A stretch of DNA of 59,067 nt, counting the filler, from Jimgerdemannia flammicorona (lineage: Eukaryota): assembly GCA_003990765.1 (NCBI GenBank). It is 3 parts of 3 records of this genome, joined end to end, with 100 filler letters (N's around TTAATTAATTAA, not from the genome) between each part and the next. Parts side by side here need not be neighbours in the genome. Positions count along the whole stretch, not along the records: positions 19,727 to 39,348 come from RBNJ01001895.1; 2 more parts are not named here. The stretch is one strand, 5' to 3'. The translations under genes were made by a program, and so were the position numbers. Each line of letters starts with the position of its first letter. The first letter of the stretch is position 1. This document shows positions 3,219 through 45,030 of this stretch, one piece after another. The notes below the pieces were generated by a model. It searched no databases and had not been told where the DNA came from. It saw only the letters and a program-made list of their open reading frames with translations.

Positions 3219-3239
3219 AGTCCTGCCCATCAGCTGTGA

Positions 3240-19626: not shown

Positions 19627-19726
19627 NNNNNNNNNNNNNNNNNNNNNNNNNNNNNNNNNNNNNNNNNNNNTTAATTAATTAANNNNNNNNNNNNNNNNNN
19701 NNNNNNNNNNNNNNNNNNNNNNNNNN
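19627..19726. other. Assembly gap with TTAATTAATTAA spacer
   Basis: N run containing an all-frame stop linker. Confidence 0.97.
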
Positions 19727-24252: not shown

Positions 24253-25497
24253 GTATTAATATCAAATCTATTAACAATTCTTATAACTTTTTTAAGAGAT
24301 CTTAGTTTTTCTAGTTTAATCTTAATATGTATATTCTCTTTTAAGCCTCAGATATAGCAGTCTATCTTTTCATCTTCTACAATATCAGATAGCTCTAAAA
24401 GAATTGATAAGAATTATATATTATACATATATAACTTTATACAAACTTGAGTTGCTTGATATTTACTAGTCTATCTCTAGCTAGTTTGATGGAATTTATA
24501 GACTTGAACTACTTATAGAGAGCCTCCTTAAATACTCTTCAATCTTCAATTATTATTTCTTAATAGATAGTAATAGTTATAATATAATTATACTATTAAA
24601 TGGTTATATTTTCTTAGAGAAGTATAATAGCATATTAGACTTATATATCTATCTTTATTATTATAAGTTTGAAGTATTAGTCTAACTAAAAAGTCTATAT
24701 ATCAGTAGACAATCCTCCTCAGTAGCCATTAAAAGTATTTGACTTAAGTGGTTTAAAATTAATAAATATAATTATAAAGTGAGCTACTATAGCTATACTT
24801 TTAATTTTTGAATATTTTAGTTATACTTATAAGTTTCAAATCTAGTATATTATTGTAGTAATCATTTCTTTTAGATTAATCTATATTTCTGAATTTATAT
24901 CTTCTATTACAAAGAGATCTGAATAGCTGACTAGTTCTCTGATATTAATTTTAGATTTGTATGACTAATTGTAACTAATTTCTGAATTTATATACAATTT
25001 TTTAATAAGATAAGATATAACTTCACTACTACTATTAAGTATAACAGTTTTAGGTTCTTTAAGAGAAAGTAACTAAATTAAAAATATTCAAATAGATTTA
25101 TATATAGTAGCTCAAAAAGATATTATAAATTTAAGTGATCTTGAAGAAATTTTAGAAAAAATATTCCAAGCTTTATTTGAGTAGAAAAAGAGAATATTTA
25201 TATAAGATCTGAAAGAAAGATCCAGAAGAATCTTAGAAATAAATAAAAAAAGTCAAGAATATAATTTTTAGCAAAAATGACTAATAATATTCTATAATAT
25301 TTCAAAAGATTCTATAACTAGCTAAGATAAGATACTTAGTATCAAGAAAAGACAAAAATATTCTAGTAAAGTTTTAGTGATAAGAGAGGATTCTTAAAAT
25401 TTAAAAAATACTAAAATATTATAGAATATTTAAAAAAAAGATAAGAAAAGACTAAAAAAAAGATACAAAAATATACTATACCTAAGAAATTATTATA
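24253..25497 (-). mobile_element. Fragment (5' LTR ~25497-25040 + gag) of the dUTPase-gypsy family, copy 3
   Basis: Reverse complement matches 45590-46830 and 100-530. Confidence 0.8.
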
Positions 25498-27199: not shown

Positions 27200-27390
27200 A
27201 TACAAACGACTTAGCACAAAACAGTGATGAACGATGACTAAGGGCAGAACAGCGATGCCGATGACGACGAACGACGGATGATGTATAAAAGCGCAGAACG
27301 GCGATGACAACGACGACAGATAATGGGTGACGGGTAAGCACAGAACGATAAGCGCAGAACGACGACTAAGTGTAGATGACGATGGTAGTG
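27200..27390. repeat. Short minisatellite (aagcacagaac..gatga.cgacgac) upstream of gene copy 1
   Basis: Same unit is expanded at 33420-34310. Confidence 0.7.
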
Positions 27391-28822
27391 CTCTGCATGG
27401 GTCAACCTAAAAGAGTAACCAATGCAAAGTACTCACGAAGCGATTTCAGCGGTTGTTCAGAAGAGGGGGTGAGAAATTCGTTGGTGGACATTTCGACAGT
27501 TGGAGTCATGGCAACGGCAATTTGAAGGAAGGTTTCGTCTGTGGGAATCTCGTTGAAGGGATCTCAGCGGAGGGGTCTTGATTCTTGATGCGGAATGTCG
27601 CTGGGGTGTTTATGAACGGAGCTGCCTGTGGACATAATATGACTATAGCATTGGCTCACGGGTACCTGCAGCTTACCCGACCCGTGTCGATCACTGTTCA
27701 GCAGGGAGACCTTGGCGTCGACAATCTCGGTGGGGGTTTTCGTCATTGCAGTAGGTTGTCATTCGTGGGAACGAATGGCCACATGACTGTGAAATTCAAA
27801 CTGCTATATTTCATTAACAGTGCGCTCCTAACCACGTGAAGGGCAACTTACAAAGGACCACGCAAACAGACATACTATACGCAGGCTTCTCTACGTGGCC
27901 AGCCCGAGGCGCAGCTGCTCCTGCAACGTAGTCAGGCTGGGTACGAGCGCCATCGCTAAAAAAGGACGGAATTTGGTCTGCTAGATGATCACGCCGGAGG
28001 CGGCCACTTTATTACATCTCCCTGTTTTGTTAGTCATACTAAGCCACTGGAGGTAACATTTTAAAAGAGGCTTGGCTCAAATACGATACCTTTTTTTTTT
28101 TTTTCAAATACGATACCCTTCGTCAAACTTAGCCAACGTTCTCCAAAACGGATGGTTACGGCATCGCGGCCTCTCCGATTTGGACATATCAACCTTAAAA
28201 GAGTATGTCTGTATGTTACAACCAGGGCAGATACCAGAGAAAAATTCGTGATGTTGATGGCAGCGTCCATCATGGACTTTGTCAAAACGCAGGAGACATA
28301 GACTATAACTGAAAGCTCAAAAGATTGGGTCCTATTTCCGCGTGTCATGGTCAAGCGACGAGACAAGAGACGTAATGCGTTTAGACGCGTCCTGATTTTT
28401 TGGGACAACCATGACATAATGTGTGACAGCCGTGGCATGATTTACATGTATGGGAGATGTCAAGCCAGAATTATCCAATCTTCAGCAATCTACAATCGGA
28501 CCCGCACCATCACGTCCGATAATCGTGAGAGTACACTCAATCTTTAATTAACGGCAAGCAAGATTCTGCCCCTACAATTTGTGGATATGCCACCATGGTC
28601 ATGAGGCGCCGGGTCACCAGTTCACTTATGTAAATAGAAGGACCCTATACTCAACTTAGATTTAGGTTCATCGAAACAGGAATCGCGGTGCAAGGAATGG
28701 GATGAGCTCCGCCCAATGCAACAAATTTAATAATTCCCAGTTGCCATAAAGCCAACAGCTTCGCGCTCAATTCTGCCTTCGCTGGCTCTCTTTCACACTC
28801 CCCACCCCCCGAAACCACGACG

Positions 28823-31167
28823 ATGTCATCCGAGCAACGACAGTACTCGATACGGTCAAGCTTCTCCGTGAAGTACGACACCGAAGGCTGCTCCATCCCT
28901 ACAAATCCAGATTACATTGGTTGCTCAATCTGCGCGTTAAAGTCCCATTTCCGCAAGTACTGCCCCTTGAACCCCAGCCGCGTGGACCCCGAACAATATC
29001 CCGTAGCCATTGAGGTGCCGAACAACAGCCTCGTGGTGCCTACCAACAGCCTCGTGGAAGGACGAGGAATTTACATCATATATCAGTTCAGGGGCGACGA
29101 CTCAAATGCTGTCAAACACGGTCACGCCCAGATCGACACAGGCGCAGATACCGATTTCATGTCCTACACTACATGCTGCCGTCTCAGACTTCAAGATCGC
29201 CTGACCAACCACGACGGCTTGGGCTGCTCCTTACAACGTGCAGGCCGATACCATGGGCGCCTCGAAAACGTTCGTCTCTTTCTAGGAACCCCGGGCGCCG
29301 AGGAAGAGGTCGTGGTCATCTCACCCATGGTTCATGACCACCCAGATATTGATATCCTCATAGGGTGCCCCACCTGTGAAAATGAAGGCTGGATCCTTGC
29401 TCCTCGCGACAACACAATCAATGGTCCCAACAATCTTTACATCACCACATATCCCTCAGTAAACATCGTCAACCAGCAAATGGAAAAATTCTCCGACGCC
29501 GTAGGAACCCAAGATGAGCACCTCACCGATGAGCAGCAAGGAGCCGATCTCTACCCGGAAAATATCCCGTCGCCGATGCCTACGTCTATGCATGTAGCAT
29601 CACCAGATATGAATTATTTCAGTATGCCATTACAGCAAGTATCCCTCCTTGTGACGCCTTTTCCAGCGCTTCACGATCATATGCCGGCAATGGCAGAGTC
29701 AATCAGCGAAAATCCTATGGAAGATTTCAATGTCAGCATGCCGTTACGACCGGCGACCGCACCAGGAACCAATTCAACCATTGATACAACCACACATGGC
29801 AACGCACCTAATGGTGGAACATTGTCTCCCTTATATGGTTTTTTCGATGGTCACGATGTAGAAATGCAACATGTCCAAGATACGCAAGCCGCCATTTGTG
29901 TTCCAGATCCACAAAGCATCCCCCCTATGCCCAGTATGGCCACGCCATTGACCTCTTTGACCTGGTTCCCTCTTCAGCAATCGAGAGAGCTTTCTACTGT
30001 GTCACCCTACAATTCTATGTCGATTTTACAGCCACCGATTCTTCCGCCGGCCCAATTCGTATGGGACTTCGCTGCTGCGACTGGTGAGCTCAATCCCCCC
30101 TCAGAGATAGTCGAGGTTCATCGCCACCTTCCTTCTGACATGGACGCATCATCCCCAACGGTTCCTGTAACAATCCAACAGTATGGGTATGACCACTCGG
30201 TCTCCTCTATGTTCCATGAATGGAACATGAATCCTCCCAACAACAACGAGCTTATTTTTGTTCTGGAAAGCGGGTTGCCTTCCGTGGCCCAGCCGCGGCG
30301 CCCCCGACGGAACCAATCGACGACCTCACCGATACCCCCACCCTGCGATAGGTGCATCCAAAGTGGACAGGTCTGTGATCTCAGGTCGCCATGCACGAAA
30401 TGCCAGAGAATGGATCTGGAGTGCGTGCGCTCTCGGATGGCGTCCGTCATGAGAACTCTAAAGTTATTGTTTATAAGCCAATTCAAGTGTTTATTGGATG
30501 AGTGCCTCCTCGGGGTGGCAAGGTCAAGGGAGTTCGATAGCCTTCAGCAATATTTCGTACCGGGCTTCACCGACGACGTGGAGATGCAGGGTAAGTTACG
30601 TGCCATATTTTGGTGATATTGTAGGTGATACAATGGATCTCTGCTGATATTTTATTGTACTATGTCCGGCCATTCACAGGTTTAAGAGGAGCTAGTGATG
30701 AAGTACTCATCGCCACTGCATCCGCTCCGAACTGCGGGCGTACGATAATCACAAAAGACCCGGACTTCCTCAATACGCCACCGAACCGAAAGGGTACCAT
30801 AATTTTAAGAGGAAGCATGCGGGTGGACCAAAGGTGTGTTCCAGTGTCCATGTGTAGGTTGCGTAACGAACTATTGTATCCTGCTATTCTTTGCCTGTTT
30901 CAGAATTATGCAAATGAACTGGAGAGGTGAGTATTTAATACCGCCTTAGCGTCGCTGCGCCCTCCAAAAAAAATCGCGTAACTAACAGAAATGGCCACCA
31001 TAACGATTGTTAGAGTGTATCATCAAGGGATTTGCCAATTTGCGACTATCTCTGGCGAGATGATCGACGGTAAAGCCAACGTAACCTGGAAATTCCAAGA
31101 CCCTACAGACAAGGAGTTGGCATACGTCAGGCGAAGAGCGGAAGGCCGATATACAGAAGTTTGTTGA
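28823..31167 (+). CDS. CCHC knuckle - retropepsin-like aspartyl protease - low-complexity linker - Zn2Cys6 - DUF5615/Mut7-C-like PIN fusion protein, copy 1; predicted exons 28823-30590, 30680-30833, 30904-30926, 30989-31167
   Basis: CSICALKSHFRKYC (Cx2Cx4Hx4C); HAQIDTGADTDFMS...DILIG; CDRCx6Cx5CTKCx6C; after GT-AG splicing LLDECL...GLRGASDEVLIATA...GRTIITKDPDF...GTIILR; the four exons join in frame to TGA at 31165. Confidence 0.85.
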
Positions 31168-33419
31168 ACAGAAAACCAGTAAACAGAAGGTCAATGAGTG
31201 GGTCGTTGCCCAAACCTGAAATCCGTTTCTGTAATATTACATCTAAGACTTGACATGGTTGAATGAACGTATTCGTTGTTTTGCAAGCTCGCTATTCTTC
31301 TAAAATTATTTATCTTCTATTATATTTATTGAATTTATATCTTTCCTTTTTTTTTTTTTTGTGGGAGGTTTTGCATAAAGCACATATTAATTAGCAAGTG
31401 AACATAATTACCAACCTCGTTCTTCGTACGACCTGACATGGTGGAGCAAAGATCTTTCCAAGTGATATACACACCCACCAGAGTCTACCATACCTTTTGG
31501 AATCCCGTTGTCCGCTTCCGACGGTGTTTCGTCGGGAACTCATTAAATCATAAAGATTTTGTACCGACTCCTTAACCGAACAGTTGCAGCGCTGTGACGA
31601 CATAGAGAAAAATAAAATAACAATTCAGCGCTGTGATCACAGCTCAGGTGGTAGCAAGGATGCGATTCCAGCGTTCAGTCTGTAAGTTCAATCTAGCCAT
31701 TCAATTTCCACGAAGTAGTTAGGTCAATATGGAGTTCCTATATTTGAAGAGATTTACGTGAGCTTCGACCGACTTTGCTTCTGGGACGGTTTATATGTAT
31801 ATATATATGTGTGGAAATTGCATATGGGTGATTCAGGAAATGAAAGCCTCTGACGCAGTGAACACCGTTGGTCCAGAAGATTGATAATCAGCTGCCGAAT
31901 TCGGACTAAGTTTTGGTTTCTATGTACATATGATTTTCTTGATGGAAGGTTGTGACCAATGAACAAGGGCAACAAGCCAATCGTTGCGAAAAGGGGAGAA
32001 TGCAACAACTCAAAAAAAAAAAAAAAAAAAAAAAAAGAACGGAAATACTGTTTAAGTAATGAACTATGTGCAGCCGCCACTATCGTGACATCGGACTAGG
32101 GCAAATCAGGCCCCTGGTTCGTGACGCGTGTCTGGTTTATGCGCCACTCGATTCGCACAAACAAGCCAAACAAGGCCACATATTGTGGCACCGAACTTTA
32201 CAAGGTTTGTAGTCACGTGAAGCTCATAGGGTGCTTTCATAAAAAAAGTATCCAGGTTCCAGGAGATCACGTCACATGTCGCTAGGAGCTCTACACTCAT
32301 TCGAGGTCAAATTGCCTCGCGTGACATAAAGCAGACAATAATAACAATTCTGTGAGTGTGAATATATGTATGATCTCGGCCTCTTTCTGTATATACATAA
32401 ACCGCGTGACATAAATCAATGCCGTGCATGTGAAGATGTCATGATATGTATGTCCCACCCATGCCTTTCCATATACATACTCTTGGGAGGTTTCTTTCCA
32501 CGTCAACGCAGTTCGTTGGACGGGGTTCCGAAAACGGAGTTTTATTCCGAGGTCACACCTTCATTCATTTATTAATAAAAACAAAAGGGTCTTCTGATCA
32601 AACAAAGTGACACAGTACACCCATTGAGTGACCTACGCCATGCTCGCAATCAGTGGGTCACCGGGCACATATACTCTTGTACGATCGCTCAATGGAAATT
32701 ACAGAGTCACATATTAATTACATATTACATAATTACAAGCAGTTTGATGTTCTAAAATAAATTGCGGCATCCACAAATATTCCAACCCAACAATCTACGC
32801 CTTTTTTTCAACATTTCAGAAACAACATGTGTCTCGCGTTACCAAAAACAGAGTTTCACTGCCAGGCCCCCCAAGCTAACAAGAGCGCTGATGGAGAGGC
32901 AGAATGGTCTGGGCGCGAGCTACCAACTTTACTCAAATACGCTCCAGATCCCTTAATGATTTCTGGAGCTGCGGCCTAACTTGGCGGCCAATTGCTACAT
33001 AATCTATAAGAACAACCCTCAACGTGAGCAAAATAAAGAGAACCGAGCCGAGCGCCAGGGTGATAGAGAAAAGGCAGAGATCGAGCATCAACTGCGCCGT
33101 GCGACAAAGTTTGGTCTGGTCACGAAATAGCTACACGATATTGACCCCGAGCTTTCCGACATATAACAGTCCTCTCGAAAGAAGCAACCCAACACCTTAC
33201 GTCCATTATGAATGCAATCTCGGAATTCCATCGTGAAAATTTTTGGGACATTTGGGATGCATCCCCAGACGACAATGCAGATGTCGTAGATGAGCTCGCC
33301 CATAAATGTACACTCAAACCCCTTTTTATTATACAATACTATAATAAATATTACAGATAAAAAATAAATGGAATAAGACTATAACCAAAGCCAATTCACT
33401 TGTAAATTAGTCGGAAGAT

Positions 33420-34310
33420 GGATGACGGACGACTGATGACGACGGACGTCGGACGATGGGCGATGAACAACGGATGATTAAACTCAGAACGATGAACGGC
33501 GGCTAAGCACAGAATGGCGATGAACGACGACTGAGTCCAGAACGATGACTAAGCACAGGACGGCGATGAACGACAACCAAGCACGGAACGGCGAAGATGG
33601 TGATGATAGACTAAGTACAGAACAGTGATGAACGACGACCTAGCGCAGAATGGCGATAACGACGACGGATTAATTACAGAACAGCGATGAACGACGACAA
33701 GCGCAGAACAGATATGAACGATGACGAAACGCAGAACGACGATGACGATGACGACGACGACGACAACAACGACGACGGACTTAGTGCAGAACAGCGGTAA
33801 ATGACGACTAAGTACAGAACAGCGATAAACAACGACCGAGCGCAGAACGGCGGTGACGACGATGACGACGACGACGACGACGGACTAAGTGCAGAACAGC
33901 GATGAACGACGACCAAGTACAGAACAGTGATAAACGTCGACCAAGCGTAGAACGGCGATGACGACGATGGACTAAGTGCAGAACAGCGATGAACGACGAC
34001 CAAGCGCAGAATGGCGATGGTGACGATGACAACAACGGACTAAGTGCAGAACAGCAATGAACGACGACTAAGTGAAGGACAGCAATGAACAATGACCAAG
34101 TACAGAATGGTGATGAACGACAATTAAGCACAAATAGCAATAAATGAAGGCTAAGGGCAGAACGATGATGACGACTAAGTACAGAATGACAATGAACGAC
34201 AACTTAGCACAGGACATCAATGGCGCAGAATGGCGATGACGTTGACAACGGACGATGGATGATGGATAAGCACAGAACAATGACAACGATTAAGCGCATA
34301 ATAATGATGA
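33420..34310. repeat. Expanded ~27-30 bp minisatellite with (gac)n tracts upstream of gene copy 2
   Basis: Many iterations of ctaag(t/c)(a/g)cagaacagcgatgaacgacgac. Confidence 0.9.
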
Positions 34311-35412
34311 TAGCCCTCTTAATGAGTCAACCTAGAAGCCCACCAACTACTGCGAATACTGGTCGTGGGCAGTACGAATCTCGTCAGTGTGAATAACAGC
34401 AGTGGGAATTGGTAGTACAAATCTTCTTGAAGGGAGTTTTCGTCTCGGGAATCTCGTTGAATGATTCTTAGCGGATCGTCTGGGTGTTTGTGAACGAGCT
34501 ACCCGTGGACAAAATAGGCCTATATAACATTGCCTCACGAGTACCTGAAGCTTACCCAACCCGTGCCGAGCACTGTGGAGTGCGTTCACCTTGGCGTCGA
34601 CAATCTCAGTAGTAGGAACGCATGGTTGCACAAACCTAAAAAAGGACGCGTTTATCAAACACATGTGGTCTTTTCGTGAAAGGAAATGCACCTTGCCGAC
34701 GTTCTCTAAAACGATACCCTTCGTCAATGCTTCGCCTTTACGCTGAACTTATCCAACTTTCTCCAAAACAGAGACTTTGCCGATGGTTACGGCATAGCGG
34801 CCTCCCCAATTTGGACATGTCAACCTTAAAAGAGTGTGTCAGCATGATATCCGCCAGTGACGTTGATGGCAGCGTCCCATCACGGACTTTGTCGAGACGC
34901 AGGAGGAAGAGGCGTAGACATAGACTCTAAGCGAAAGCTCAAAGGTTGGCGTGTCATGGTGTTAAGAGACAAGAGACATAACGCGTTTAGACGTGGTACC
35001 CCTGAAGCGACTTGAGCGAACTTGATTCACCAGCGCACGGGGCTTTGAAACAGTCACCGGCTTCAATCTAAATTGGGCCTTTCGCGTCCTGATTTGTAAC
35101 AAAGCATTTTGGGTTATGTATATATATAGGGAGGACCAAATTAGATATGGGTCCATCAAAACAGGTACCGTGGTGTTAGGAATGGGATGAGTTCCGCCCA
35201 ATGCAACAAACTTAATAATTCTCAAGTTGCCATAAAGCCAATAGCTTCGCGCTCAATTCTGCTTTCATTGACTCTCCTTCACACTCCCCCCCCCAAAAAA
35301 AAAACAAAAAACAAAAAACAAAAAACAAAAAACAAAAAACAAAAAACAAAAAACAAAAACCACGACGACGTCATCCGAACAACGACAGTACTCGACACGG
35401 CCAAACGTCTCC

Positions 35413-37462
35413 ATGAAGTACGACACCGAAGGCCGCTCCATCCCTACGAATCCAGGTTACATCGGTTGCTCAATCTGCACGTTAAAGTCTCATTTCCGCA
35501 AGCACTGCCCCTTGAACCCCAACCGCGTGGACCCCGAACAATATCCCGTAGTTCCGACCAACAACCTCGTGGTGCCGACAAACAACCTCGTGGAAGGACG
35601 AGGAATTTACATCATATATCAGTTCAGAGGCGGTGACTCAAATGCTGTCAACGGTCACGCCCAGATCGACACAGGCGCAGACACCGATTTCATGTCCTAC
35701 ACTACATGCTGCCGTCTCAGACTTCAAGACCGCCTGACCAACCACGACGGCTTGGGCTGCTCCTTACAACGTGCAGGCCAATACCGTGGGCGCCTCGAAA
35801 ACATTCGTCTCTTTCTGGGAACCCCGGGCGCCGAGGAAGAGGTTGTGGTCATCTCACCCATGGTTCACGACCACCCAGATATTGATATCCTCATAGGGTG
35901 CCCCACCTGTGAAAACGAAGGCTGGATCCTTGCTCCTCGTGACAACACAATCAAAGGTCCCAACAATCTTTACATCACCACATATCCCTCAGTAAACATT
36001 GTCAACCAGCAAATGGAAAAATTCTCCGAAGTCGTAGGAACCCAAGATGAGTACCTTACCGATGAGCAGCAAGGAGCCGATCTCTACCCGGAAAATATCC
36101 CGTCGCCGATGCCTGTGTCTGCGTATGTAGCATCACCTGCAGACATGAATTATTTCAGTATGCCATTACAGCAAGTATCCCCCCTGGTGTCGCCTTTTCT
36201 AGCGCTTCACAACCACATGCCGGTAATGCCAGAGTCAATCAGCGAAAATACTATGGAAGATTTCAATATCAGCTTGCCGTTACGACCGGCGACCGCACCA
36301 GGAACCAGTTCAATCATTGATACAACCGAACATGGCGACGCACCTAATGGTGGAACATTGTCTCCCTTGTATGGTGTTTTCGATGGTCACGATGTAGAAA
36401 TGCAACATGTCCAAGATACGCATGCCGCCATTTATATTCCAGATTTGCAAAACATCCCCCCTATGCCCAGTATGGCCGTGCCATTGACCTCTTTGACCTG
36501 GCTCTCTCTTCAGCAATCGATGGAGCTTTCTACTGCATCATCCTACAATTCTATGTCGATTTTACAGTCACCGATGCATCCTCCGGCCCTATCCGTATGG
36601 GACTTTGCTGCAGCGACCGGTGAGCTCGATCCCCCCTCAGAGATGGTCGAGGTTCATCGCCACCTTCCTTCTGACATGAACGCATCATACCCAACGGTTC
36701 CTGCAGCTGCCCAACAGCATGGTGACGACTCGGTCTCCTCTATGTTCCATGTTTGGAACACGAATCCTTCCGACAACAACGAACTTATTTTTGTTCTGGA
36801 AAGCGGGTTGCCTTCCGTGGTCCAGCCGCAGCGTCCCCGACGGAACCAATCGACGACCTCACCGATACCCCCACCCTGCGATAGGTGCATCCGAAGTGGA
36901 CAGGTCTGTGATCTCGGGTTGCCATGCATGAAATGCGAGAGAATGGATCTGGAGTGCGTGCGCTCTCGGATGGCGTCCGTCATGAGAACTCTAAAGTTAT
37001 TGTTTATAAGCCCGTTCAAGTGCTTATTGGATGAGTGCCTCCTCGGGGTGGCGAGGTCAAAGGAGTTCGACCGCCTTCAGCAATATTTCGTACCGGGCTT
37101 CACCGACGACGTGGAGATGCAGGGTAAGTTACGTACTATATTTTACGAGATTGGAGGTGATACAATGGATCTCTGCTGATATTTTATTGTACTACGTCCG
37201 GCCATTCACAGGGTTAAGAGGAGCTAGTGATGAAGTACTCATCGCCACTGCATCCGCTCCGAACTGCGAGCGCACGATAATCACAAAAGACCGGGACTTC
37301 CTCAATACACCACCGAACCGAAAGGGTACCATAATTTTAAGAGGAAGCATGCGGGTGGACCAAAGATGTGTTCCCGTGTCCATGTGCAGGTTGCGTAACG
37401 AACTATTGTATCCTGCTATTCTTTGTCTGTTTCAGAATTATGTAAACGAACTGGAGAGGTGA
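35413..37462 (+). CDS. Copy 2 of the knuckle-protease-Zn2Cys6-PIN gene with an altered or possibly decaying 3' end; exon 1 35413-37123, exon 2 from 37212
   Basis: Highly similar paralogue; intron 2 donor GT->AT at 37366, CAA->TAA at 37443 in exon 3, 10-bp deletion in exon 4; original ATG is ACG, with a new ATG at 35413. Confidence 0.75.
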
Positions 37463-38626
37463 GTGTTTAATACCGCCTTAGCGTCGCTGCGCCTCCAAAA
37501 AAATCGCGTAACTAACAGAAATGGCCACCATAACAACGATTGTTAGAGTGTATCATCAAGGGATTTGCCAATTTGCGACTATCTCTGGCGAGATGATCGA
37601 CGGTAAAGCCAATGTAACCTGGAAATTCCAAGACCCTACAGACAAGGATTTGGCGAAGAGCGGAATGCCGATATACAGAAGTTTGTTGAACAAAAAACCA
37701 GTGAACAGAAAGTCAATGAGTGGGTTGTTGCCCAAACCTGAAACCCGTTTCTGTAATGTTACATCGGAGTCTTGATTTGGTCGAATGAATGTATTCGTTA
37801 TTTTTTCTTCTTCTGAAATTATTTACATTCTTTTATATTTATTGATTTTATTATCTCTCCATTTTTTATTTTTTGTTTTTTTTTTTTGGAGGAGGTTTTG
37901 CATGAAACATGCAAGTGAATTGATTTTCATTGTCGAACATTCCAACCTTGTTCTTCGTACAACCTGACACGGTGGAGCAAAGATCTTTTCCAAGTGACAT
38001 ACACGGTCACCAGAGTCTACCATACCTTTTGGATTTCCCCCAACATCCTCTGTCCAATCGGGTTGTCCGCTTCCGGCGGTGTTTCGTTGGGCTCATTAAA
38101 TCATAAAGGGTTTTGTACCGATTGAAAATAAAAATAATAAATCAGCGCTGTAATCACAGCTCAGGTTGTAGCAATCTAGCACCATCGAACACAGTGCCAT
38201 ACACGGAGCAATACCAAAACCAACGCATAACCCTTATCACAAAATCTTTTGAGTACCAGTGAGTACCTGCGCCATACATGATGCTGCTCCTTCCGGATAA
38301 ATTTTTGTGGAATATGAAGTTCCAATAATCGCCTCACACGCTGTCATCGAATTGCTATATTTGAAGAGATTTACGCGAGTATCCACAATAGATTTACGGG
38401 CTTTGCCTTTTTTAAGTTTGCTTTATCCGTATGTGGAAAATGCACGAGTGATTCAGGAAATGAAAGCTGATACCGTTGGTCCTAGCCGTTTTGGAAGATT
38501 GACAATCCGCTGCCGAAATTGGACTAAAGGTTTTGGTTTCTATGCGCATATGATTTTCTTGACGGGAGGTGAATAACGAACAAGGCAACAAACCAATCGT
38601 TGCGAAAAGAGGAGAGTGCAACAAAT

Positions 38627-38707
<81 letters not shown>

Positions 38708-39348: not shown

Positions 39349-39448
39349 NNNNNNNNNNNNNNNNNNNNNNNNNNNNNNNNNNNNNNNNNNNNTTAATTAA
39401 TTAANNNNNNNNNNNNNNNNNNNNNNNNNNNNNNNNNNNNNNNNNNNN
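39349..39448. other. Assembly gap with TTAATTAATTAA spacer
   Basis: N run with linker. Confidence 0.97.
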
Positions 39449-42400
39449 CCCCATACCCTCTCTATTAAAGACCACTAGGTCATTAATTACCTCCATCTGC
39501 CCACTACTCTGTTCACAAATTTCTTCTACCAGATAGTAGTGATGCCTACCCTGGAGACTCTATCCAATCCACCACTCTGTCAGCAAATCTCCCACAAAAC
39601 TCTCCCATCTCAACAACCTCTCCTGTAAACCCAGCTGCTGTCTCTTCTCAAAAACAAAGAGCCAATGTCCAGCCAGCCCTATCTATATAGCTAAAACCCA
39701 CCCTACAGTAAGCCATTCATTATCCATACTACCCACCAATCTAGTTCTCAGATCTTTTCAGCAACCTCACTCCCCATCTGACCTCCTCTCCACACCCAGC
39801 TGGTCCCCTACTGCTATCCCAAAGTCTCCCAGAACCTCACACTCTCCTAGCCAATATTCTGGAGTCTGTACAAATCCCTCAACTTGTCTGATATTGTAGT
39901 ACTCCTCACATTCCAATAATCTACCATCCACCAGATGTCCAGTATGAAAATTCAACATAATATTCCTTCATAGTATCTGTCACTATACTACTCAGAACTT
40001 GGGAGAAAGCCACCTTCACACTTCAGTACTTTATGTCCAGACCCCTGCCCAATCTCACTCCTCACCAATCCTCACTGCTTACTAACTTCCAGGCCAGAGA
40101 TCCTAACTGAGTTCCTGCTGATACTCCATTCTATCTACAATATCAAACTCAATAAGTGGAGTGCCCCCCAAAAGCAGTCTATCTCATCTCTACATAGCTA
40201 GTCTCCACAGCATCTCCCCTTCAATGTCATGCCAGCACAAGTCTATGTGGTGTGCTCCATCTGCTACCCTCCACCAGAAGCCTTTATACCATAGCTGATA
40301 ACTTCCACCCAGGGCCACCAGAGATAGCAGATCCCCTGTGGACCCTCTCAGGGAGAATCTCATCTTCTATATCTTCTGCATCAGTGGCACCCATCCCCCT
40401 CCCCTCAGCTCCACAGTCTGCTTCAACCACCAAGCTCTCAGACAGTACAGCCTCTTAGAAAAATCCACCAATTCTAACCCCCCTCTAACTACTGACATTG
40501 AAAGGGCATCCCAACTGATCTGAGACCACCTCTAGCCCAAATCCAATCCCTAGCCAGTTTCATCAGTCTCTTCACCACCCAAGCAGAGAAGTCTAAGTGA
40601 TAGGTTATATACTGCAGCTTAGGGAACTAGTAGACATTCAGAGTCAATACTTGGCCTGCCAGAGAGATGTATCAACCTCCTCAGCCTATAAGCGCCTCTC
40701 TCCAGATGGCCACCCTCCTCTCTCACCACACTCATGGTAAGACCAATCCATACACTGAAAGGAAGATACCCAGGTATCTCACCATCTCTCCTATAGGGAC
40801 AATTGTTCCAATGATGTCCCCTCTCACTAACCCATTTCCTAACACCATTGTCTCACACTTTTGTCAGTTAAGTTTTGCTCCAGAGTGTGCCTCATACCAT
40901 TCTACCATCTCCTTAAGGGTCTCTACATCTACCACTGATCTAAGTCCTACCACCATGTCATCTGCAAAGGCCCCCACCTTCCACACCACACTATAAATAG
41001 AGAGCCCTGCTACCTTCCACTGAATCCTATCCATCAAAGATTCTAGTAAAAGGGTATATAGAATAGGAGACAGTGGATCTCTCTGAGGAACTCCTCTTCC
41101 CAAGGGAAAAGCCAGACCTCAGTGACCATTACACATCAGTGCTGCCCTACTGCCCTCTAATAGATTCAACATAAAAGCTCAAAAAAGTAGAGGAACTCCT
41201 ATTCTGTCCAGCACCTTGCCCAACCACACTTGCTGAACCCAGTCATAGGCTGTCTCCTGGTCTAAAAAGACCAGTCTCCCATCCAATCTACTAGCCCATG
41301 CTCCTTCAATAATGCCATAGACCCAGGCCATCCCATCTCTGATAAGTCTACCTCCAACAAAATCCTGCTGCTCCTCACCCAACACCTATTGAGCAACCTT
41401 CTGTAATCTTGCTACAATAACCTTAGTAACCATCTTCCTATCTATATCCCAAAGCATAATCAGACTCCAGTTCTTCCAATCCTCCCTCCTCCTCTTGTCC
41501 TTGTCCAACAGGGCCACCAGCCTTAGGTTCTGCCATCCCACCCACTGGCCATTCTGAAGAACAATATCACAAAGGGCTGCCATCTCTCCTAGTACTCCTG
41601 GGACTCTCACCATCTTCTTTCAAAAGTCCCAAGGTAGTCCATCCTCTCCTGGTGCCATTCCAAGCTTAGTTGCTGCAAGGACTCTCTATATCTCCTCCTC
41701 TTGGACTGGTAAGATCAAATTCCCCAGGCCCTCTACTTGTGGTGGCTCCCAATTCTCCAGAGTGTCTCCAAATGCCTCTGCATCAGTACTCCCTTCCTTC
41801 TCACTCCACAGACCTCTCCACCACTCCTTCAGCAACCCCAGGATTATTGTGTACTATGAACCATTTCCCCCTGAGCATCAAGGACTCCATCTCATCAATG
41901 TTGCACCCTTCTAGCCTGGAGGAGTCTTGACAAATACCTAATGGGCCTTTCTCTCTCCTCACGCCCCTGTCACCTCAGTCTAGTTACCATTCCTTTCATC
42001 CATATCTCCTCCTTCTCTCTTAACACCTGTTTCAACTCCACCACTTCCAGCTTAGCCCACACTAACCTCCAATCATCCATCTCACTAGAATTTATCAAAT
42101 CAGCCCATTCTATCTGCAATCTAACCAATCTATTAAAAGCACACCTCACTCTCTTTCTTCTCTGCCTCCCAGCATCCCAACCAGCTTCTTCTCAGTAAAT
42201 CCTCACATCCTCTTATAACTTCATCCACCAGACATCCACTGACAAACCCTCATATGCTAGCTAGTGATCTTCCCCTGAATGTCCTCTGCCCAAGGGTCCC
42301 ACAATATCTTCTCAGCCAGCAAGGAGGAGTTAAGGCACCAATGTCCAGGTCTATCTTCACTCCCCCCAAACTGCTCCTGCCCTAACAATCTCCAGTGATC

Positions 42401-45030
42401 TGACCATGGGCACTACTCCATCTCTAGAGTCCTCCAAATATCCATGCCCCAGTATTCAGCTATCAGTATCCAGTTGATCCTTGTACCTAGCTCATTCACC
42501 CAGTATGTGTAAATCCTCTTTTCTCCCCACTGCATTCTGCCCATATCCCCCAAGGAGCTAAGGTTCTCCACCTCCTCCCAAGTATCCAGGCCATCACTCC
42601 TTCTACCAGAACTCCTCCCTCCATCAGTTCTATCTAACTGAAGATCCTGCACCATATTGAAGTCACCCTCCAGAATATCTATCCCACTCTCCAAGAATGC
42701 ACCCTCCTCTAAGAGACCCTTAATCTATACAATCCACTCACCCCTAGTCTCAGGGCAGTAGCAAGAGCCAACTCTCACTAGTTCTCACCCTGGTCAATAC
42801 CATTCCCCTCATACCAAATGGTCTCCCCAGCTCCTGACTCCATTAAAATCCCCTTTACCACTCCACACCAAAACTGCCACTTTGTCCATCTAAGCTGTAG
42901 CTCCACCCCTTTCTCTAGTCCACTCCACTTGATTCACATCATCACTATACATTCTGCAGTAGAAAGAGATCAGCCTCCAATCCCTTAAGCCAAGTGAAAA
43001 TGTTCTTATACTACCTAGAACCCTGTAACCCATTCACATTCAGAGAAAAAATATTAGTTGTACTGTTCATTGAGAATAATGTTTTAGAAGTAGTGCTAAT
43101 CCTCTACAAATTCACATTTATCCCCTCCCTTGCCACATCTAAGTTATGTTCAGCATCCACTTCCTCCTCTACAGCCATCTTTGCCTTCAATCTAACCAGA
43201 AGTTCAGCCATCTCCCCATCCTTCTTCTCCTCAAACTCCTCTCAATACTCCAGGCAGGCCTTCTGTCAGAGCTATAATCTATGATACTCTGCCCAACAGT
43301 ATACCACCCACTCACCAGCAACAATCACCAGCTCAGCCTCTCTCTCCTTATCAACCTCATACCCCTCCTCCTTCAGGAAGATCACAAGAACCTCTGCTTT
43401 CAGTGCCTTCACCACTCCATCACCATGCAGAATCTATGCCTAATGCTCTTCACTCATCACCCTCAGGTCTACTTCCCCCAACTCTTCAGCCACAAAGTTG
43501 TTCATCATCTGGCTCATCCACAGTAGATTTCCTACCTCCTTCCCTCCTGGAGATACTGACCTTCCTGTACTCAGCATTGTGGTATCTGCTCCTACACTCA
43601 CATCATCCTCACTAACTGCTACCACCTGACCCCCTTTTGCTACATCCAGAACTCCAAAATGTACCCACTGGGCACTATGCATCAGCACATTCTCTGCCAC
43701 CTGGCTCCTCACAGCAGGACCTCCTGACAAGAGAGGGAGTGCTATCTAAATCCTGTTCCCAGACTTCAAACATACCATCTGCATATGGGTCCTTGTGTGG
43801 TGGCTTTTCAGCCGCATCCTGACCCTCCTCACTATCCCCTCCCCCCTTACTGGCCCAGACACTTGCTTCAGTGCCCCCAGACTCCTCAACACTACCTGCA
43901 TTCTTCTTTGCCCTTTCTTCTAGACTCACCAACAACTCTCTCTTCCTCCTGCACCTCTGAGCCCTCTCTCACTGCCTCTTGTCAGTGTGGAGATGTTTTC
44001 CATTCACAATCTCCAAATGTATTGACTCTATATATCTTTCAGGCCTTTGCCCTCCACTCAACTGCTCCACTCATCTCTTCCAGAGCCTCTAACAAATTCT
44101 CCTCACTCTCCTTCACCCTCAATACCTTATAGATAAAGGCCCCCCACATTAGTACCAAAGGTCAGTCACTCATCTTCTCAGTGGCCTCTCTCCCAGTCAG
44201 TCTAATCCTAATATCAATATCCACTATCCTAAAAGTAGTCCCCTCCCACATCTGGAATCTGATATCAACCACATTATAATACTCTGCCATTACCTCCTCA
44301 ACCCTCCTCCTAGTCTCAACCTTCATCATGGTAGGCACTCTCTTGACCAGTAGCTGAACTACCCTGGGGTCTCACCTCAGATAGCACACTATAGGGACCA
44401 CCACTACACCTACAGCCAATCTCACCTTCAATGTATGCTCCATTGGGCCTGCCTTCTCAAAGCCCACCTCAACCCCCTCCAGACCCTTCAGGAGCTTCAC
44501 TGAGGTAGCCCCAGTCATCTGTTTAGAGATAAGCCCCAGAACCATCCTTGTTGTCACTACCAAGCCCCAGAAATACAAGGTTACAGTGAACTCTGAGATT
44601 GACTTCTTGAGCAATAGTGTCACTATTAGCTCTATCACACTATCAGCCAGGTCTCCCTCCTCTTTGGTCCCATCAGCCCAGCCCCACCATCAGTAGTCAC
44701 ATATGGATTTTTTTTCAGATTCCCAGTCATGCCACCATCAGCAGTCCCCTCCCTACTCCCAGCATCTGCTCCACCAGCCCTTTCCCCTCTGGCAGAGGAG
44801 CTGAACCTCCTGCTTTTCCTTCCCTCTACTTTTCCTTCCTCCCTGTCTGCCCACTATGAGCTCTAACAGGCCATCCTTCAGTCTTCAGCATATCAGCAAA
44901 GCTCCTCCCTCTCTGCCCTCCTGCCCCTCCTCTAGTGCTGCTACCACTACCTGAACTGCTCTGCCCACTAAGACCACTGAAAGACCTTATCCCTAGTCCA
45001 ATATGTTACCAGTTGAAGGCTCCAGGTTTA
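39449..45030 (-). mobile_element. Degenerate non-LTR retrotransposon (L1/Tx1-like): ORF1 (~44900-43100) and ORF2 with APE endonuclease + RT starting at 43070
   Basis: MNSTTNIFSLNVNGL, ILEGDFNMV, TRINWILI (APE); LVFLDQETAYDWV, GVPQRDPLSPILY, AFADDMVV, YLGI (RT); many stops, almost no CpG. Confidence 0.9.

What the first reader, a model, noticed from the sequence alone, without database searches (positions are those of the whole stretch)
28823..31167. Unusual four-module gene: zinc knuckle + retropepsin + Zn2Cys6 + bacterial-type PIN (DUF5615-like) nuclease
Seen: one spliced reading frame carries a CCHC knuckle, an intact DTG protease motif with downstream DILIG, a canonical Zn2Cys6 cluster, and a C-terminal domain LLDE...GLRGASDE...IITKDPDF...GTIILR. 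The ORF track splits that last domain because an intron lies inside it. Known: knuckle-then-protease is the Gag NC-PR order of LTR retroelements; retropepsins act as dimers, and Ddi1/DDI2-type enzymes process transcription factors; the C-terminal motifs are typical of DUF5615/VapC45/Mut7-C PIN-like RNases, mostly prokaryotic. Inference: a domesticated gag-pro module fused to a fungal DNA-binding domain and a possibly horizontally acquired toxin. It could be a self-cleaving, dimerisation-triggered nuclease or regulator acting in anti-retroelement defence, cell death or a selfish toxin system. I know of no described protein with this architecture.
Basis: partly seen in the sequence, partly recalled or inferred. 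Interest (0 to 1): 0.92.

Follow-up and report, generated by a model that had tools for sequence, protein, structure and literature searches.

The report
Fungal protease, zinc-cluster, PIN-nuclease fusion gene
A small, lineage-restricted fungal gene family, present here as two tandem copies, joins a retrovirus-like zinc knuckle and probable aspartic protease to a fungal DNA-binding zinc cluster and a bacterial toxin-type PIN nuclease; this combination was not found described, and its function is untested.

Summary
The four motifs are real and sit in one gene. Exon 1 (28823-30590) carries an exact CCHC knuckle, an invariant DTGA block, about 280 fast-evolving residues and a canonical Zn2Cys6 cluster. 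A DUF5615 PIN-like domain starts in exon 1 and continues after a conserved intron (30591-30679).

It shows purifying selection on the protease-like and PIN parts (dN/dS 0.13-0.20).

In copy 2 that donor is AT and the 23-nt micro-exon holds a stop. I favour one intron, 30927-31013, giving 722 aa.

Zn2Cys6 and DUF5615 are well supported. The retropepsin call is weaker. No profile method detects it and AlphaFold2 failed. A language-model fold gives a symmetric dimer through the DTG loops (0.61 against 0.01 for controls).

Only three relatives exist among 1.84 billion representative proteins. No LTRs, TIRs, RT or integrase were found. No RNA data were available.

The likeliest reading is a dimeric, possibly self-processing, DNA-tethered nuclease born of retroelement and bacterial parts. 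The mechanism is inferred.

The parts
28823..30590 (+). Exon 1 of copy 1 (589 codons plus 1 base): start codon, knuckle, protease-like domain, linker, Zn2Cys6 and the first part of the PIN-like domain
   Evidence: Open frame and translation. The window's own 597-aa read-through product P0004 maps here at 100%. All 4 indels against copy 2 inside this exon are multiples of 3: 9, 3, 3 and 3 nt.
28922..28963 (+). CCHC zinc knuckle, CX2CX4HX4C (residues 34-47)
   Evidence: Pattern found. C34, C37, H42 and C47 are invariant in 4 of 4 homologs. There is no Pfam zf-CCHC hit at E<=10.
29045..29470 (+). Retropepsin-like domain (residues 75-216) with DTGA at 29135-29146 and DILIG about 73 residues downstream
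   Evidence: The motif block is invariant. dN/dS for residues 61-216 is 0.20. The ESMFold2 homodimer scores 0.61 against 0.01 for the best control, with the DTG loops in contact. The Atlas feature neighbours with a named family are all retropepsin or zf-CCHC clusters; the top hit is unnamed. Against: there are no significant profile matches and AlphaFold2 gives pLDDT 29-32.
29471..30307 (+). Pro/Ser-rich variable linker (residues 217-495)
   Evidence: dN/dS is 0.90 and nucleotide divergence 8.9%, yet the frame stays open with in-frame indels only. Composition is P 13.3% and S 10%. Much of it is shortened in P0007 and P0006.
30344..30424 (+). Zn2Cys6 binuclear cluster (residues 508-534), preceded by a basic PRRPRR stretch
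   Evidence: Canonical spacing. Pfam Zn_clus scores 29.0 bits in homolog P0007 against a cut-off of 21, and 11.4-16.6 bits in the other copies. The PDB profile hit to LAC9 has E=0.0044, with GAL4, LEU3, Pho7 and CBF3 below it. Seven other Zn-cluster proteins were found by the profile.
30479..30590 (+). First part of the DUF5615 PIN-like domain (first strand with LLDE, first helix)
   Evidence: It aligns colinearly with the start of the DUF5615 profile across the splice junction. dN/dS is 0.13.
30591..30679 (+). Intron 1 (89 nt, GTAAGT...CAG, phase 1)
   Evidence: Divergence is 8% with a 1-nt indel between copies. An in-frame stop follows 8 codons into it. Gene model P0005, which maps best to copy 2, splices here, and P0007 ends at the same point.
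30680..30926 (+).
   Evidence: Pfam DUF5615 gives E=0.001-0.0017, matching profile positions 31-80 of 110. In 30834-30926 there are 6 substitutions between copies: 5 synonymous third positions and 1 Ala/Val. dN/dS is 0.06-0.20.
30927..31013 (+). Proposed intron 2 (87 nt): GTGAGT donor, ACTAAC at 30981-30986, TAG acceptor at 31011-31013
   Evidence: Read from the sequence. All three signals are kept in copy 2, whose intron is 88 nt. A 2-nt and a 3-nt indel both fall inside it. There is no RNA evidence.
31014..31167 (+). Last exon: end of the PIN-like domain (to ...ANVTWKF, 31095), a 23-residue tail and the stop TGA at 31165-31167
   Evidence: It is the least diverged stretch between copies: 3 substitutions in 168 aligned nt, 1.8%, against 8-13% in intron 1 and upstream. 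It raises the global hhalign score to the DUF5615 profile to 32.7, and 0 of 40 shuffles of this exon reach that.
35368..37775 (+). Tandem paralog (copy 2): exons 35368-37123, 37212-37458 and 37547-37775. The original ATG is ACG, and a new ATG sits at codon 17. An 11-nt deletion changes only the tail after the domain.
   Evidence: Self-BLAST gives 90.9% identity over 2719 nt. The model stays open, 743 aa plus stop counted from the ACG. Gene model P0005 maps best here.
27206..32036 (.). Duplicated segment; its second copy is 33694-38652. The two are separated by a minisatellite at 33547-34138.
   Evidence: No repeat pair flanks a single copy.

Best explanation
This is a real, low-copy, lineage-restricted fungal gene family. 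Its named relatives are hypothetical proteins of the Endogonales fungus Jimgerdemannia flammicorona. The product, about 722 aa in my preferred model, is a chimera of four modules:
- a retroelement Gag-NC-type CCHC knuckle followed by a retropepsin-like domain;
- a long, fast-evolving disordered linker;
- a GAL4-type Zn2Cys6 DNA-binding cluster;
- directly after it, a DUF5615 PIN-like nuclease of the kind that in bacteria is the toxin half of DUF433-DUF5615 gene pairs.

Proposed mechanism (inferred, not shown). The N-terminal domain pairs into a symmetric dimer that builds one aspartic active site from two DTG loops. This also brings two Zn clusters and two PIN domains together. The Zn cluster tethers the protein to DNA. 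The PIN domain keeps every acidic motif residue, so it cuts nucleic acid nearby. The protease may cut the protein's own linker to release or unleash the Zn2Cys6-PIN half. The Zn2Cys6 module sits where the DNA-binding antitoxin gene sits in the bacterial pairs.

My odds: real gene with the Zn2Cys6 and PIN modules, about 0.9; the N-terminal domain has a retropepsin-like fold, about 0.7; the mechanism as stated, about 0.3.
For: REAL GENE.
- The 589-codon frame is kept in two window copies and in P0006 and P0007 (53-67% identity).
- All 4 exon-1 indels are multiples of 3, whereas those outside the coding frame are 1, 2, 3 and 11 nt.
- dN/dS is 0.20 for the protease-like part, 0.13-0.20 for the PIN part and 0.90 for the linker.

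Zn2Cys6. Canonical spacing; Pfam 29.0 bits in P0007; PDB hit to LAC9 at E=0.0044.

PIN-LIKE DOMAIN.
- Pfam DUF5615 gives E=3.5e-4 to 1.7e-3 on pieces.
- hhalign of the spliced domain against a profile of 23 cyanobacterial DUF5615 ORFs scores 33.7 local. Forty shuffles average 11.3 with sd 1.7 and a maximum of 15.4. The global score is 32.7 against 3.9 with sd 2.2.
- Atlas feature neighbours score 0.87 and share 178-185 of 256 features; all are DUF5615 clusters. Structure TM is 0.56-0.59.
- The motifs LLDE, GASDE and TKDPDF are all present.

BACTERIAL CONTEXT. A DUF433 ORF lies immediately upstream in 21 of 23 DUF5615 loci examined.

PROTEASE-LIKE DOMAIN.
- The HAQIDTGAD block is invariant.
- Two copies folded by ESMFold2 score 0.61, against 0.01 for the best of 3 controls. 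That mark was reached by 21 of 30 proteins solved as pairs of one chain and by 0 of 23 solved as single chains.
- On eukaryotes the mark was reached by 17 of 29, but by only 1 of the 7 with no older solved relative, so the pass may be from memory. It was reached by 0 of 30 single chains.
- The runs share at least 94% of contacts and the partner pLDDT is at least 82.
- The interface is residues 6-9, 29-35 (which include D31, T32 and G33 of the DTG), 108-121 and 137 of the 142-aa piece, with D31-D31 and T32-T32 touching.
- Atlas features for residues 1-235: every listed neighbour that carries a named family is a retropepsin and/or zf-CCHC cluster, at 0.80-0.89. The top hit, at 0.90, is an unnamed hypothetical-protein cluster.
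Against: - No RNA evidence of expression or splicing could be obtained.
- The protease assignment fails every profile test. There is no Pfam hit for this copy at E<=10, and only E=0.14 and 0.2 for paralog P0006.
- No retropepsin appears among 1.84 billion representatives at E<=0.001.
- PDB matches are only EIAV protease at E=1.5 and a 128-residue chain at E=1.4.
- hhalign against 19 bacterial Asp_protease_2 domains scores 16.3 at probability 1%. That equals the score of the unrelated PIN domain against the same alignment.
- AlphaFold2 gave pLDDT 28.9 and 32.2.
- The two positive lines, Atlas features and ESMFold2, both rest on protein language models and may key on the DTGAD motif. The complex pass may be 'from memory'.
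- The knuckle region evolves fast (dN/dS 0.78). The Zn region has 5 non-synonymous and 0 synonymous changes between copies.
- Self-cleavage, DNA binding and nuclease activity are all untested.
- The 3' gene structure is unsettled, so the last strand of the PIN fold depends on an unverified splice.
Confidence: 0.45

Rival explanations
1. The gene belongs to a selfish element. It is either a single-gene toxin/antidote driver, as Spok genes are in Podospora, or the polyprotein of an unrecognised mobile element. In the second case the order knuckle, protease, spacer, zinc-binding module, nuclease mimics Gag-NC, PR and then integrase.
For: It sits in a GC-normal island (about 0.46-0.51) between AT-rich repeat blocks (0.15-0.37), with repeat families on both sides. 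It is tandemly duplicated, with a further paralog on another contig. It is restricted to very few sequences. It carries a toxin-type nuclease. Spok genes are single-gene killers with a nuclease-type domain (PMC6660238 and PMC9972908; search listing and abstract starts only).
Against: No LTR or TIR pair flanks a single copy. No RT, integrase or transposase domain was found in 62 of 70 ORFs of 85 aa or more outside the two copies; the 8 not scanned are tandem-repeat or poly-A ORFs. Only 3 relatives were found in the protein collections. The protease-like and PIN domains, and the coding sequence as a whole (dN/dS 0.53), show purifying selection rather than decay.
Confidence: 0.2
2. It is a host restriction factor against LTR retroelements. 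The NC/PR-like head would co-assemble or heterodimerise with retroelement Gag-Pro and carry the PIN RNase into particles. That would be a natural counterpart of engineered capsid-nuclease fusions.
For: The knuckle-then-protease order and the predicted pairing surface are those of retroelement proteins. A conserved nuclease is fused to them. The genome region is repeat-rich. Capsid-nuclease fusions are an established engineered antiviral idea (PMC5035972; abstract start only).
Against: No retroelement relative of the head domain could be found at all, so no target family can be named. There is no capsid (CA) domain. The Zn2Cys6 cluster points to DNA and the nucleus rather than to cytoplasmic particles.
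Confidence: 0.12
3. It is an ordinary Zn2Cys6 transcription regulator. Its flanking domains would be non-catalytic: the DTGA domain serves only as a dimerisation or protein-binding module, or is not a retropepsin at all, and the PIN-like domain is a ligand- or RNA-binding relic.
For: Zn2Cys6 is the module with the clearest family match. The protease-like domain has no profile support. Related MUT7-C domains act in binding rather than catalysis (PMC11347159; abstract and 6 passages read).
Against: DTGA and all acidic PIN motif residues are retained in both copies, and in P0007 as far as it reaches. dN/dS is lowest in exactly these two domains. The fungal-specific middle homology region of Zn2Cys6 factors was not detected by Pfam.
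Confidence: 0.15
4. It is a decaying or mis-assembled chimeric pseudogene with no function. The motifs would be leftovers of a degraded retroelement next to unrelated fragments.
For: Copy 2 has lost the original ATG and has an 11-nt deletion near the 3' end. The public gene models are inconsistent. No expression data are available.
Against: The frame is open in both copies and in two further loci. Indels inside exon 1 are in frame only. dN/dS is 0.13-0.20 in the two enzyme-like domains. Identity is 53% across loci with invariant functional residues. Copy 2 gained an ATG at codon 17, just before the first conserved block.
Confidence: 0.06

Closest known systems
Gag-NC/protease module of LTR retroelements and its domesticated derivatives (Ddi1-type, SASPase-type and PEG10/RTL-type genes; names recalled, not tested here)
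   Same: A CCHC knuckle lies about 58 residues upstream of a D-T-G-A loop, with a hydrophobic-hydrophobic-Gly motif about 73 residues later. The predicted symmetric dimer has the two DTG loops touching. The Atlas neighbours with a named family are zf-CCHC, gag-asp_proteas and RVP clusters.
   Different: There is no significant profile match to any retropepsin family. Pfam found no capsid, RT, RNase H, integrase, UBL or UBA domain. It is fused to a Zn2Cys6 cluster and a PIN-like nuclease.
Bacterial DUF433-DUF5615 two-gene modules (VapBC-like PIN toxin-antitoxin pairs)
   Same: The C-terminal domain matches the DUF5615 profile over its whole length with the acidic motifs kept. A DNA-binding module lies immediately N-terminal, where bacteria encode DUF433 (21 of 23 loci).
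   Different: No DUF433 was found by Pfam in the protein or in the window ORFs of 85 aa or more that were scanned (62 of 70). The domain is fused, interrupted by one or two spliceosomal introns and carries an extra roughly 30-residue segment. Identity to the cyanobacterial members is only 26-47% over 30-122 residues.
GAL4-type Zn2Cys6 fungal transcription factors
   Same: CX2CX6CX5CX2CX6C spacing with a basic stretch before it. Profile hits to LAC9, GAL4, LEU3, Pho7 and CBF3. Pfam Zn_clus passes in P0007.
   Different: The cluster lies near the C-terminus, not the N-terminus. No middle homology region was detected. It is flanked by two enzyme-like domains.
Spok-type single-gene spore killers
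   Same: A fungal, lineage-restricted, duplicated gene with a nuclease-type toxic domain plus a second enzymatic domain in one protein. The comparison rests on PMC6660238 and PMC9972908 (listing and abstract starts).
   Different: There is no sequence relationship. The second domain is a protease, not a kinase. There is no genetic evidence of drive.

Membership tests
Retropepsin-like aspartic proteases (clan AA; Pfam RVP, RVP_2, gag-asp_proteas, Asp_protease_2) | Active-site D-T/S-G-A in a hydrophobic context, plus a hydrophobic-hydrophobic-Gly motif 55-80 residues downstream | tested here: met
   QIDTGAD at residues 103-109 and DILIG at residues 177-181. Both are invariant or conservatively kept in 4 of 4 sequences.
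Retropepsin-like aspartic proteases (clan AA; Pfam RVP, RVP_2, gag-asp_proteas, Asp_protease_2) | Significant sequence-profile match to a family model | tested here: not met
   There is no Pfam hit for either window copy or P0007 at E<=10. P0006 gets only E=0.14 and 0.2, at 13.3 and 12.7 bits against cut-offs of 24.3 and 28.2. hhalign against 19 bacterial Asp_protease_2 domains gives probability 1% and score 16.3, equal to an unrelated control. No hit was found in 1.84 billion representatives.
Retropepsin-like aspartic proteases (clan AA; Pfam RVP, RVP_2, gag-asp_proteas, Asp_protease_2) | Homodimer with the two catalytic loops at the two-fold axis | tested here: met
   This is a prediction only. 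ESMFold2 scores 0.61 against 0.01 for the best of 3 controls, with pLDDT of at least 82 and at least 94% of contacts shared. D31-D31 and T32-T32 are in contact. The pass may be from memory of solved retropepsin dimers.
Retropepsin-like aspartic proteases (clan AA; Pfam RVP, RVP_2, gag-asp_proteas, Asp_protease_2) | Retropepsin beta-barrel fold by comparison with solved structures | tested here: inconclusive
   The AlphaFold2 models had pLDDT 28.9 and 32.2, too poor for a fold search, so none was run.
zf-CCHC zinc knuckle (PF00098) | CX2CX4HX4C spacing with conserved ligands | tested here: met
   Residues 34-47. All four ligands are invariant in 4 of 4 sequences. The Pfam model itself gave no hit at E<=10.
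Fungal Zn2Cys6 binuclear cluster (PF00172) | Six-cysteine spacing and a profile score over the gathering cut-off | tested here: met
   The spacing is exact. The score is over the cut-off in P0007 (29.0 against 21) but below it in copy 1 (11.4), copy 2 (15.1) and P0006 (16.6). The PDB profile hit to LAC9 has E=0.0044.
DUF5615 PIN-like domain (PF18480) | Profile match over the gathering cut-off | tested here: inconclusive
   Scores are 18.7, 19.4 and 20.8 bits against 23.8 on contiguous pieces that each lack part of the domain. The spliced domain could not be given to the Pfam tool.
DUF5615 PIN-like domain (PF18480) | Colinear whole-domain similarity to family members and retention of the acidic motif residues | tested here: met
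   hhalign scores 33.7 local and 32.7 global, against shuffle maxima of 15.4 and 9.5 (n=40 each). LLDE, GASDE and TKDPDF are present. Atlas feature and structure neighbours are all DUF5615.
DUF433-DUF5615 toxin-antitoxin pair | A separate DUF433 partner encoded immediately upstream | tested here: not met
   This is present in 21 of 23 cyanobacterial loci. No DUF433 was found in the fungal protein or in 62 scanned window ORFs. ORFs under 85 aa were not scanned.
LTR retrotransposon or DNA transposon | Flanking LTRs or TIRs, and RT, integrase or transposase coding capacity | tested here: not met
   The only repeats of the gene region are the tandem paralog. There are no such Pfam domains in 62 of 70 ORFs of 85 aa or more, nor in the protein itself.
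Ddi1-type proteases | Ubiquitin-like and/or UBA domains around the protease | tested here: not met
   Pfam found none in P0001.

The most novel reading that the evidence does not exclude
The protein is a self-contained, protease-triggered toxin built from parts of three worlds. A retroelement-derived dimerising protease acts as the trigger. A fungal Zn2Cys6 module stands in for the bacterial DNA-binding antitoxin. A bacterial PIN toxin acts as the effector. It would be used either as a natural Gag-Pro decoy that carries a nuclease against resident retroelements, or as a single-gene killer/antidote element in an early-diverging fungus.
Probability: 0.12. Interest if true: 0.9.

Novelty: new variant of a known kind. 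Interest (0 to 1): 0.6.

Why it matters
If the modules are active, this would be a eukaryotic protein in which a retroelement-type protease, a sequence-specific DNA-binding cluster and a bacterial toxin-type nuclease are wired in one chain. It would give a testable case of how domesticated retroelement parts and a prokaryote-type toxin domain are recombined into new regulators or conflict genes. It would also be one of the few leads to DUF5615 function outside bacteria. The gene comes from Endogonales, plant-associated early-diverging fungi that are hard to culture (PMC5729711; listing and abstract start only). Computational leads are therefore among the few ways in. If the domains are relics, it is only a curious lineage-specific chimera.

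Tried and rejected
- RNA evidence: no RNA holder was listed for 28700-31400.
- Whole genome: none is held.
- AlphaFold2 on residues 1-235 and 75-216 with 4-sequence alignments gave pLDDT 28.9 and 32.2. No fold search was run, because a low-confidence model gives meaningless matches.
- Word-based homolog searches with the PIN part and the protease part returned nothing at E<=10.
- A metagenome scan (231 pattern matches, none confirmed) and a viral-contig scan (38 pattern matches, none confirmed) found no relatives.
- NCBIfam gave no hit for 5 pieces at E<=1.
- A local HMM of 23 cyanobacterial DUF5615 ORFs gave only 14.5-15.6 bits and did not separate the 3' gene models.
- The exon-2 peptide against 301 cyanobacterial genomes gave 3 weak matches (E=0.0014-0.0094), all with internal stops. 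No close donor was found in those searched.

Four 3' models were compared by global hhalign score:
- stop at 30930: 27.6;
- intron 30927-31013: 32.8;
- intron 30834-31013: 35.1.

The profile shows that the last exon belongs to the domain, since 0 of 40 shuffles reach the observed score. It does not support the 30834-30926 segment, where 7 of 40 shuffles reach it.

I rejected the idea that the P0005 gene model shows introns inside exon 1. The GT of its first extra intron is absent from copy 1.
Full report
WHAT IS IN THE SEQUENCE

The frame from ATG 28823 is open for 589 codons, to 30589. It contains:
- an exact CX2CX4HX4C knuckle at residues 34-47;
- DTGA at residues 105-108, inside the block HAQIDTGAD.DFMSY, with DILIG about 73 residues later;
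- a Pro/Ser-rich stretch at residues 217-495;
- an exact CX2CX6CX5CX2CX6C cluster at residues 508-534;
- LLDE at residues 557-560.

The frame that opens at 30680 continues with GASDE, TKDPDF and GTIILR.

The gene is tandemly duplicated. Positions 28812-31501 match 35357-38033 at 90.9% identity, and weaker matches extend the unit to about 27206-32036 against 33694-38652. No repeat pair flanks a single copy.

In copy 2 the start ATG is ACG. The GTG at codon 17 has become ATG, just before the first conserved block. The four indels inside exon 1 are 9, 3, 3 and 3 nt. Those outside the coding frame are 1, 2, 3 and 11 nt.

Nei-Gojobori dN/dS between the copies:

| Region | dN/dS |
|---|---|
| Whole gene | 0.53 |
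| Residues 61-216 (protease-like) | 0.20 |
| PIN parts | 0.13 and 0.20 |
| Linker | 0.90 |
| First 60 residues | 0.78 |

The Zn region has 5 non-synonymous and 0 synonymous changes. The whole exon has been kept as coding, and the two enzyme-like domains are the most constrained parts.

RELATIVES

The word-indexed search found 4 proteins among 5191 candidates:
- the window's own read-through product (P0004);
- P0005, a gene model that maps best to copy 2;
- P0006, 61% identical, on another contig;
- P0007, 54% identical, from a run assembly.

NCBI names P0005 and P0006 as hypothetical proteins of Jimgerdemannia flammicorona.

A profile of the four exon-1 proteins was searched against 1,835,955,588 representatives and found 10 proteins at E<=0.001. 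Three are these family members. The other seven match only the Zn-cluster positions 411-519. Metagenome and viral contig scans found nothing.

All metal ligands, the DTGA block and the D-E of the first PIN strand are invariant wherever the sequences reach. The family is real, conserved and very narrowly distributed.

GENE STRUCTURE

Intron 1 (30591-30679) is well supported. Its GTAAGT and CAG signals are kept in copy 2. Divergence is 8% with a 1-nt indel. A stop follows 8 codons into it. P0005 splices there, and the P0007 frame ends two residues past the same point. Joining across it adds to the DUF5615 match, and the alignment runs through the junction.

In copy 2 the proposed donor GT at 30834 is AT. 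In 30834-30926 there are 6 substitutions. Five are synonymous third positions of the read-through frame and one is Ala/Val. By my binomial arithmetic, five or more of six at third positions has p of about 0.02.

The last exon nevertheless looks coding:
- 30989-31167 is the least diverged stretch, at 1.8% against 8-13% for intron 1 and the upstream region.
- Adding it raises the global hhalign score against the DUF5615 profile from 27.6 to 32.8.
- None of 40 shuffles of that exon reaches the observed score.

A single intron, 30927-31013, reconciles these facts. It has a GTGAGT donor, ACTAAC at 30981-86 and a TAG acceptor 28 nt after the branch A. All three signals are kept in copy 2. The 2-nt and 3-nt indels both fall inside it.

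This model gives 722 aa. In copy 2 it stays open at 743 aa counted from the ACG (728 from the new ATG at codon 17), and the 11-nt deletion changes only the tail beyond the domain.

The profile does not itself support the 30834-30926 segment, because 7 of 40 shuffles reach the observed score. A single long intron, 30834-31013, scores highest at 35.1-35.6. The 3' structure therefore remains open without RNA data, and none could be obtained.

THE MODULES ONE BY ONE

Zn2Cys6. The spacing is exact. Pfam Zn_clus scores 29.0 bits in P0007 against a cut-off of 21, and 11.4-16.6 bits in the other three. PDB profile hits are LAC9 (E=0.0044), CBF3, LEU3, Pho7 and GAL4.

DUF5615.
- Pfam gives 18.7-20.8 bits (E=3.5e-4 to 1.7e-3) on pieces that each lack part of the domain.
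- To test the whole domain I collected DUF5615 loci from five cyanobacterial genomes. There were 34 matches and 30 loci. I used 23 and dropped L121, L133, L141 and L146-L149 for a stop, a wrong frame or a partial match.
- The spliced domain, assembled inside a script, scores 33.7 local against a shuffle mean of 11.3, sd 1.7 and maximum 15.4 (n=40). It scores 32.7 global against 3.9 with sd 2.2. The reversed sequence scores 12.2 and 2.5.
- The Atlas gives only DUF5615 clusters by features (0.87, with 178-185 shared features). By structure, on its own model of P0005, it gives TM 0.56-0.59. The listed clusters are mainly bacterial (69-100%), the rest archaeal where named.
- In 21 of the 23 bacterial loci the ORF immediately upstream is DUF433. 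The domain is therefore the toxin-side partner of a two-gene module.
- Identity to the cyanobacterial members is low: 44-47% over 30-32 residues and 26-29% over 89-122 residues. No closer relative was found in 301 cyanobacterial genomes.
- A prokaryotic origin is plausible, but it is old or fast-diverged, and the donor is unknown.

Knuckle. The pattern is exact and the ligands are invariant. No Pfam hit was found.

Protease-like domain. This is the weakest call. Against it:
- There is no Pfam hit for this copy, and only E=0.14 and 0.2 for P0006.
- Nothing was found in the 1.84-billion-protein library.
- PDB matches are only at E=1.4-1.5.
- hhalign against 19 bacterial Asp_protease_2 domains gives probability 1% and score 16.3. 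I used 19 of 22 loci and dropped L164, L165 and L171. The unrelated PIN domain gets the same score against that alignment.
- AlphaFold2 was unusable, with pLDDT 28.9 and 32.2.

For it:
- The motif block and its spacing are conserved.
- Every Atlas feature neighbour that carries a named family is a retropepsin or zf-CCHC cluster, at 0.80-0.89. The top hit, at 0.90, is an unnamed cluster. These scores are leads only.
- ESMFold2 folded two copies of residues 75-216 to pLDDT 82-83, with ipSAE 0.61, 0.62 and 0.61 against 0.01 for the best of 3 controls.
- That mark was reached by 21 of 30 proteins solved as pairs of one chain and by 0 of 23 solved as single chains. On eukaryotes it was reached by 17 of 29, but by only 1 of 7 without an older solved relative, and by 0 of 30 single chains.
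- The runs agree in at least 94% of contacts.
- The contacts are the N-terminal strand, the QIDTGAD loop (D-D and T-T across the axis) and the stretch after DILIG.

From established knowledge, that is the retropepsin dimer layout. The tool warns that such a pass may be from memory. It shows likeness, not activity. I put a retropepsin-like fold at about 0.7.

SURROUNDINGS

The two copies lie in a block with GC about 0.46-0.51, between AT-rich repeat blocks with GC 0.15-0.37. Those blocks hold dispersed repeat families.

Of 70 ORFs of 85 aa or more outside the two copies, 62 were scanned with Pfam. None has an RT, integrase, transposase or other mobile-element domain. The only rows were sub-threshold: EIF_2_alpha at 17.8 bits and Gemini_V2 at 13.5 bits. 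The 8 left out are tandem-repeat or poly-A ORFs. A tblastn of the full product against the window finds no third copy.

HOW IT MOST LIKELY WORKS (INFERENCE)

Shown or well supported: the gene is real, it is a chimera, the Zn2Cys6 and PIN modules are present, and both enzyme-like domains are under constraint.

Inferred:
- The head domain dimerises and forms one aspartic active site.
- The dimer holds two Zn clusters and two PIN domains together on DNA.
- The PIN domain is an active metal-dependent nuclease.
- The protease may cut the long linker, or the short stretch between the Zn cluster and the PIN domain, and so release or activate the nuclease half.

The position of the Zn cluster, directly before the PIN domain, echoes the bacterial arrangement of a DNA-binding antitoxin before the toxin. 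The biological role could be regulation, control of retroelements or a selfish toxin system. None of these is tested.

COMPARISON AND NOVELTY

Each module belongs, or probably belongs, to a known family. The combination is what is new. I found no paper with the term DUF5615. Nothing relevant appeared among the 15 titles and abstracts listed, of 24 papers holding at least 3 of retropepsin, Zn2Cys6, PIN domain, domesticated and fungi. One of these papers notes in general terms that retropepsins of early-diverging fungi might be domesticated (PMC8778642; 3 passages read). No supplements were opened.

I file the gene as a new variant of a known kind, namely a domesticated retroelement-derived fusion gene. 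It is not categorically new.

I set interest at 0.6. The architecture is surprising and conserved. It is also confined to a handful of sequences, it lacks expression data, and its most eye-catching module, the protease, is the least secure.

Noticed in passing
window 57674-59001: Tandem 158-160-nt units. Each holds an exon-like stretch that translates to ...DEGARALAESLKQNT..T.LNL and is followed by GTATGT. It looks like a leucine-rich-repeat gene of the ribonuclease-inhibitor type, with one repeat per exon. The family name is recalled, not tested.
   Followed up: partly
window 93-6747, 46391-50643 and 24432-25496: An AT-rich dispersed repeat family. There are two direct copies at 80-85% identity, about 44-46 kb apart, and a partial inverted copy at 75-77%. 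Together they bracket the gene island. No protein domain was found in their ORFs.
   Followed up: partly
window 39500-45000: A 5.5-kb block with GC about 0.40-0.49 and a strong strand bias (GC skew -0.33 to -0.54). Its plus-strand ORFs are Pro/Ser/Thr-rich and have no significant Pfam hit; the only row was Gemini_V2 at 13.5 bits, E=0.083.
   Followed up: partly
window 33547-34138; 38628-38704; 35295-35353: A 59/105-nt minisatellite lies between the two copies. A 77-nt poly(A) run lies downstream of copy 2. An AAAAAC-type microsatellite is inserted in the 5' leader of copy 2 only.
   Followed up: no
window 19627-19726 and 39349-39448: Two pairs of 44-N gaps. The 19622-nt stretch between them equals the contig length reported for P0004 and P0005, so the window is a scaffold.
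   Followed up: no
window 27564-27758 and 34347-34748 (minus strand): The duplicated unit also carries a weakly conserved minus-strand ORF upstream of each copy, about 80% nucleotide identity. It shares a ...TEIVDAKV...RHG.GKLQV... stretch and has no Pfam hit.
   Followed up: no
L125:1835-2275 (minus strand) and L138:1209-1495: In one cyanobacterial locus the ORF upstream of DUF5615 combines a ParD-type RHH antitoxin match (26.6 bits) with DUF433. In another locus the DUF433 ORF is split between two frames.
   Followed up: no
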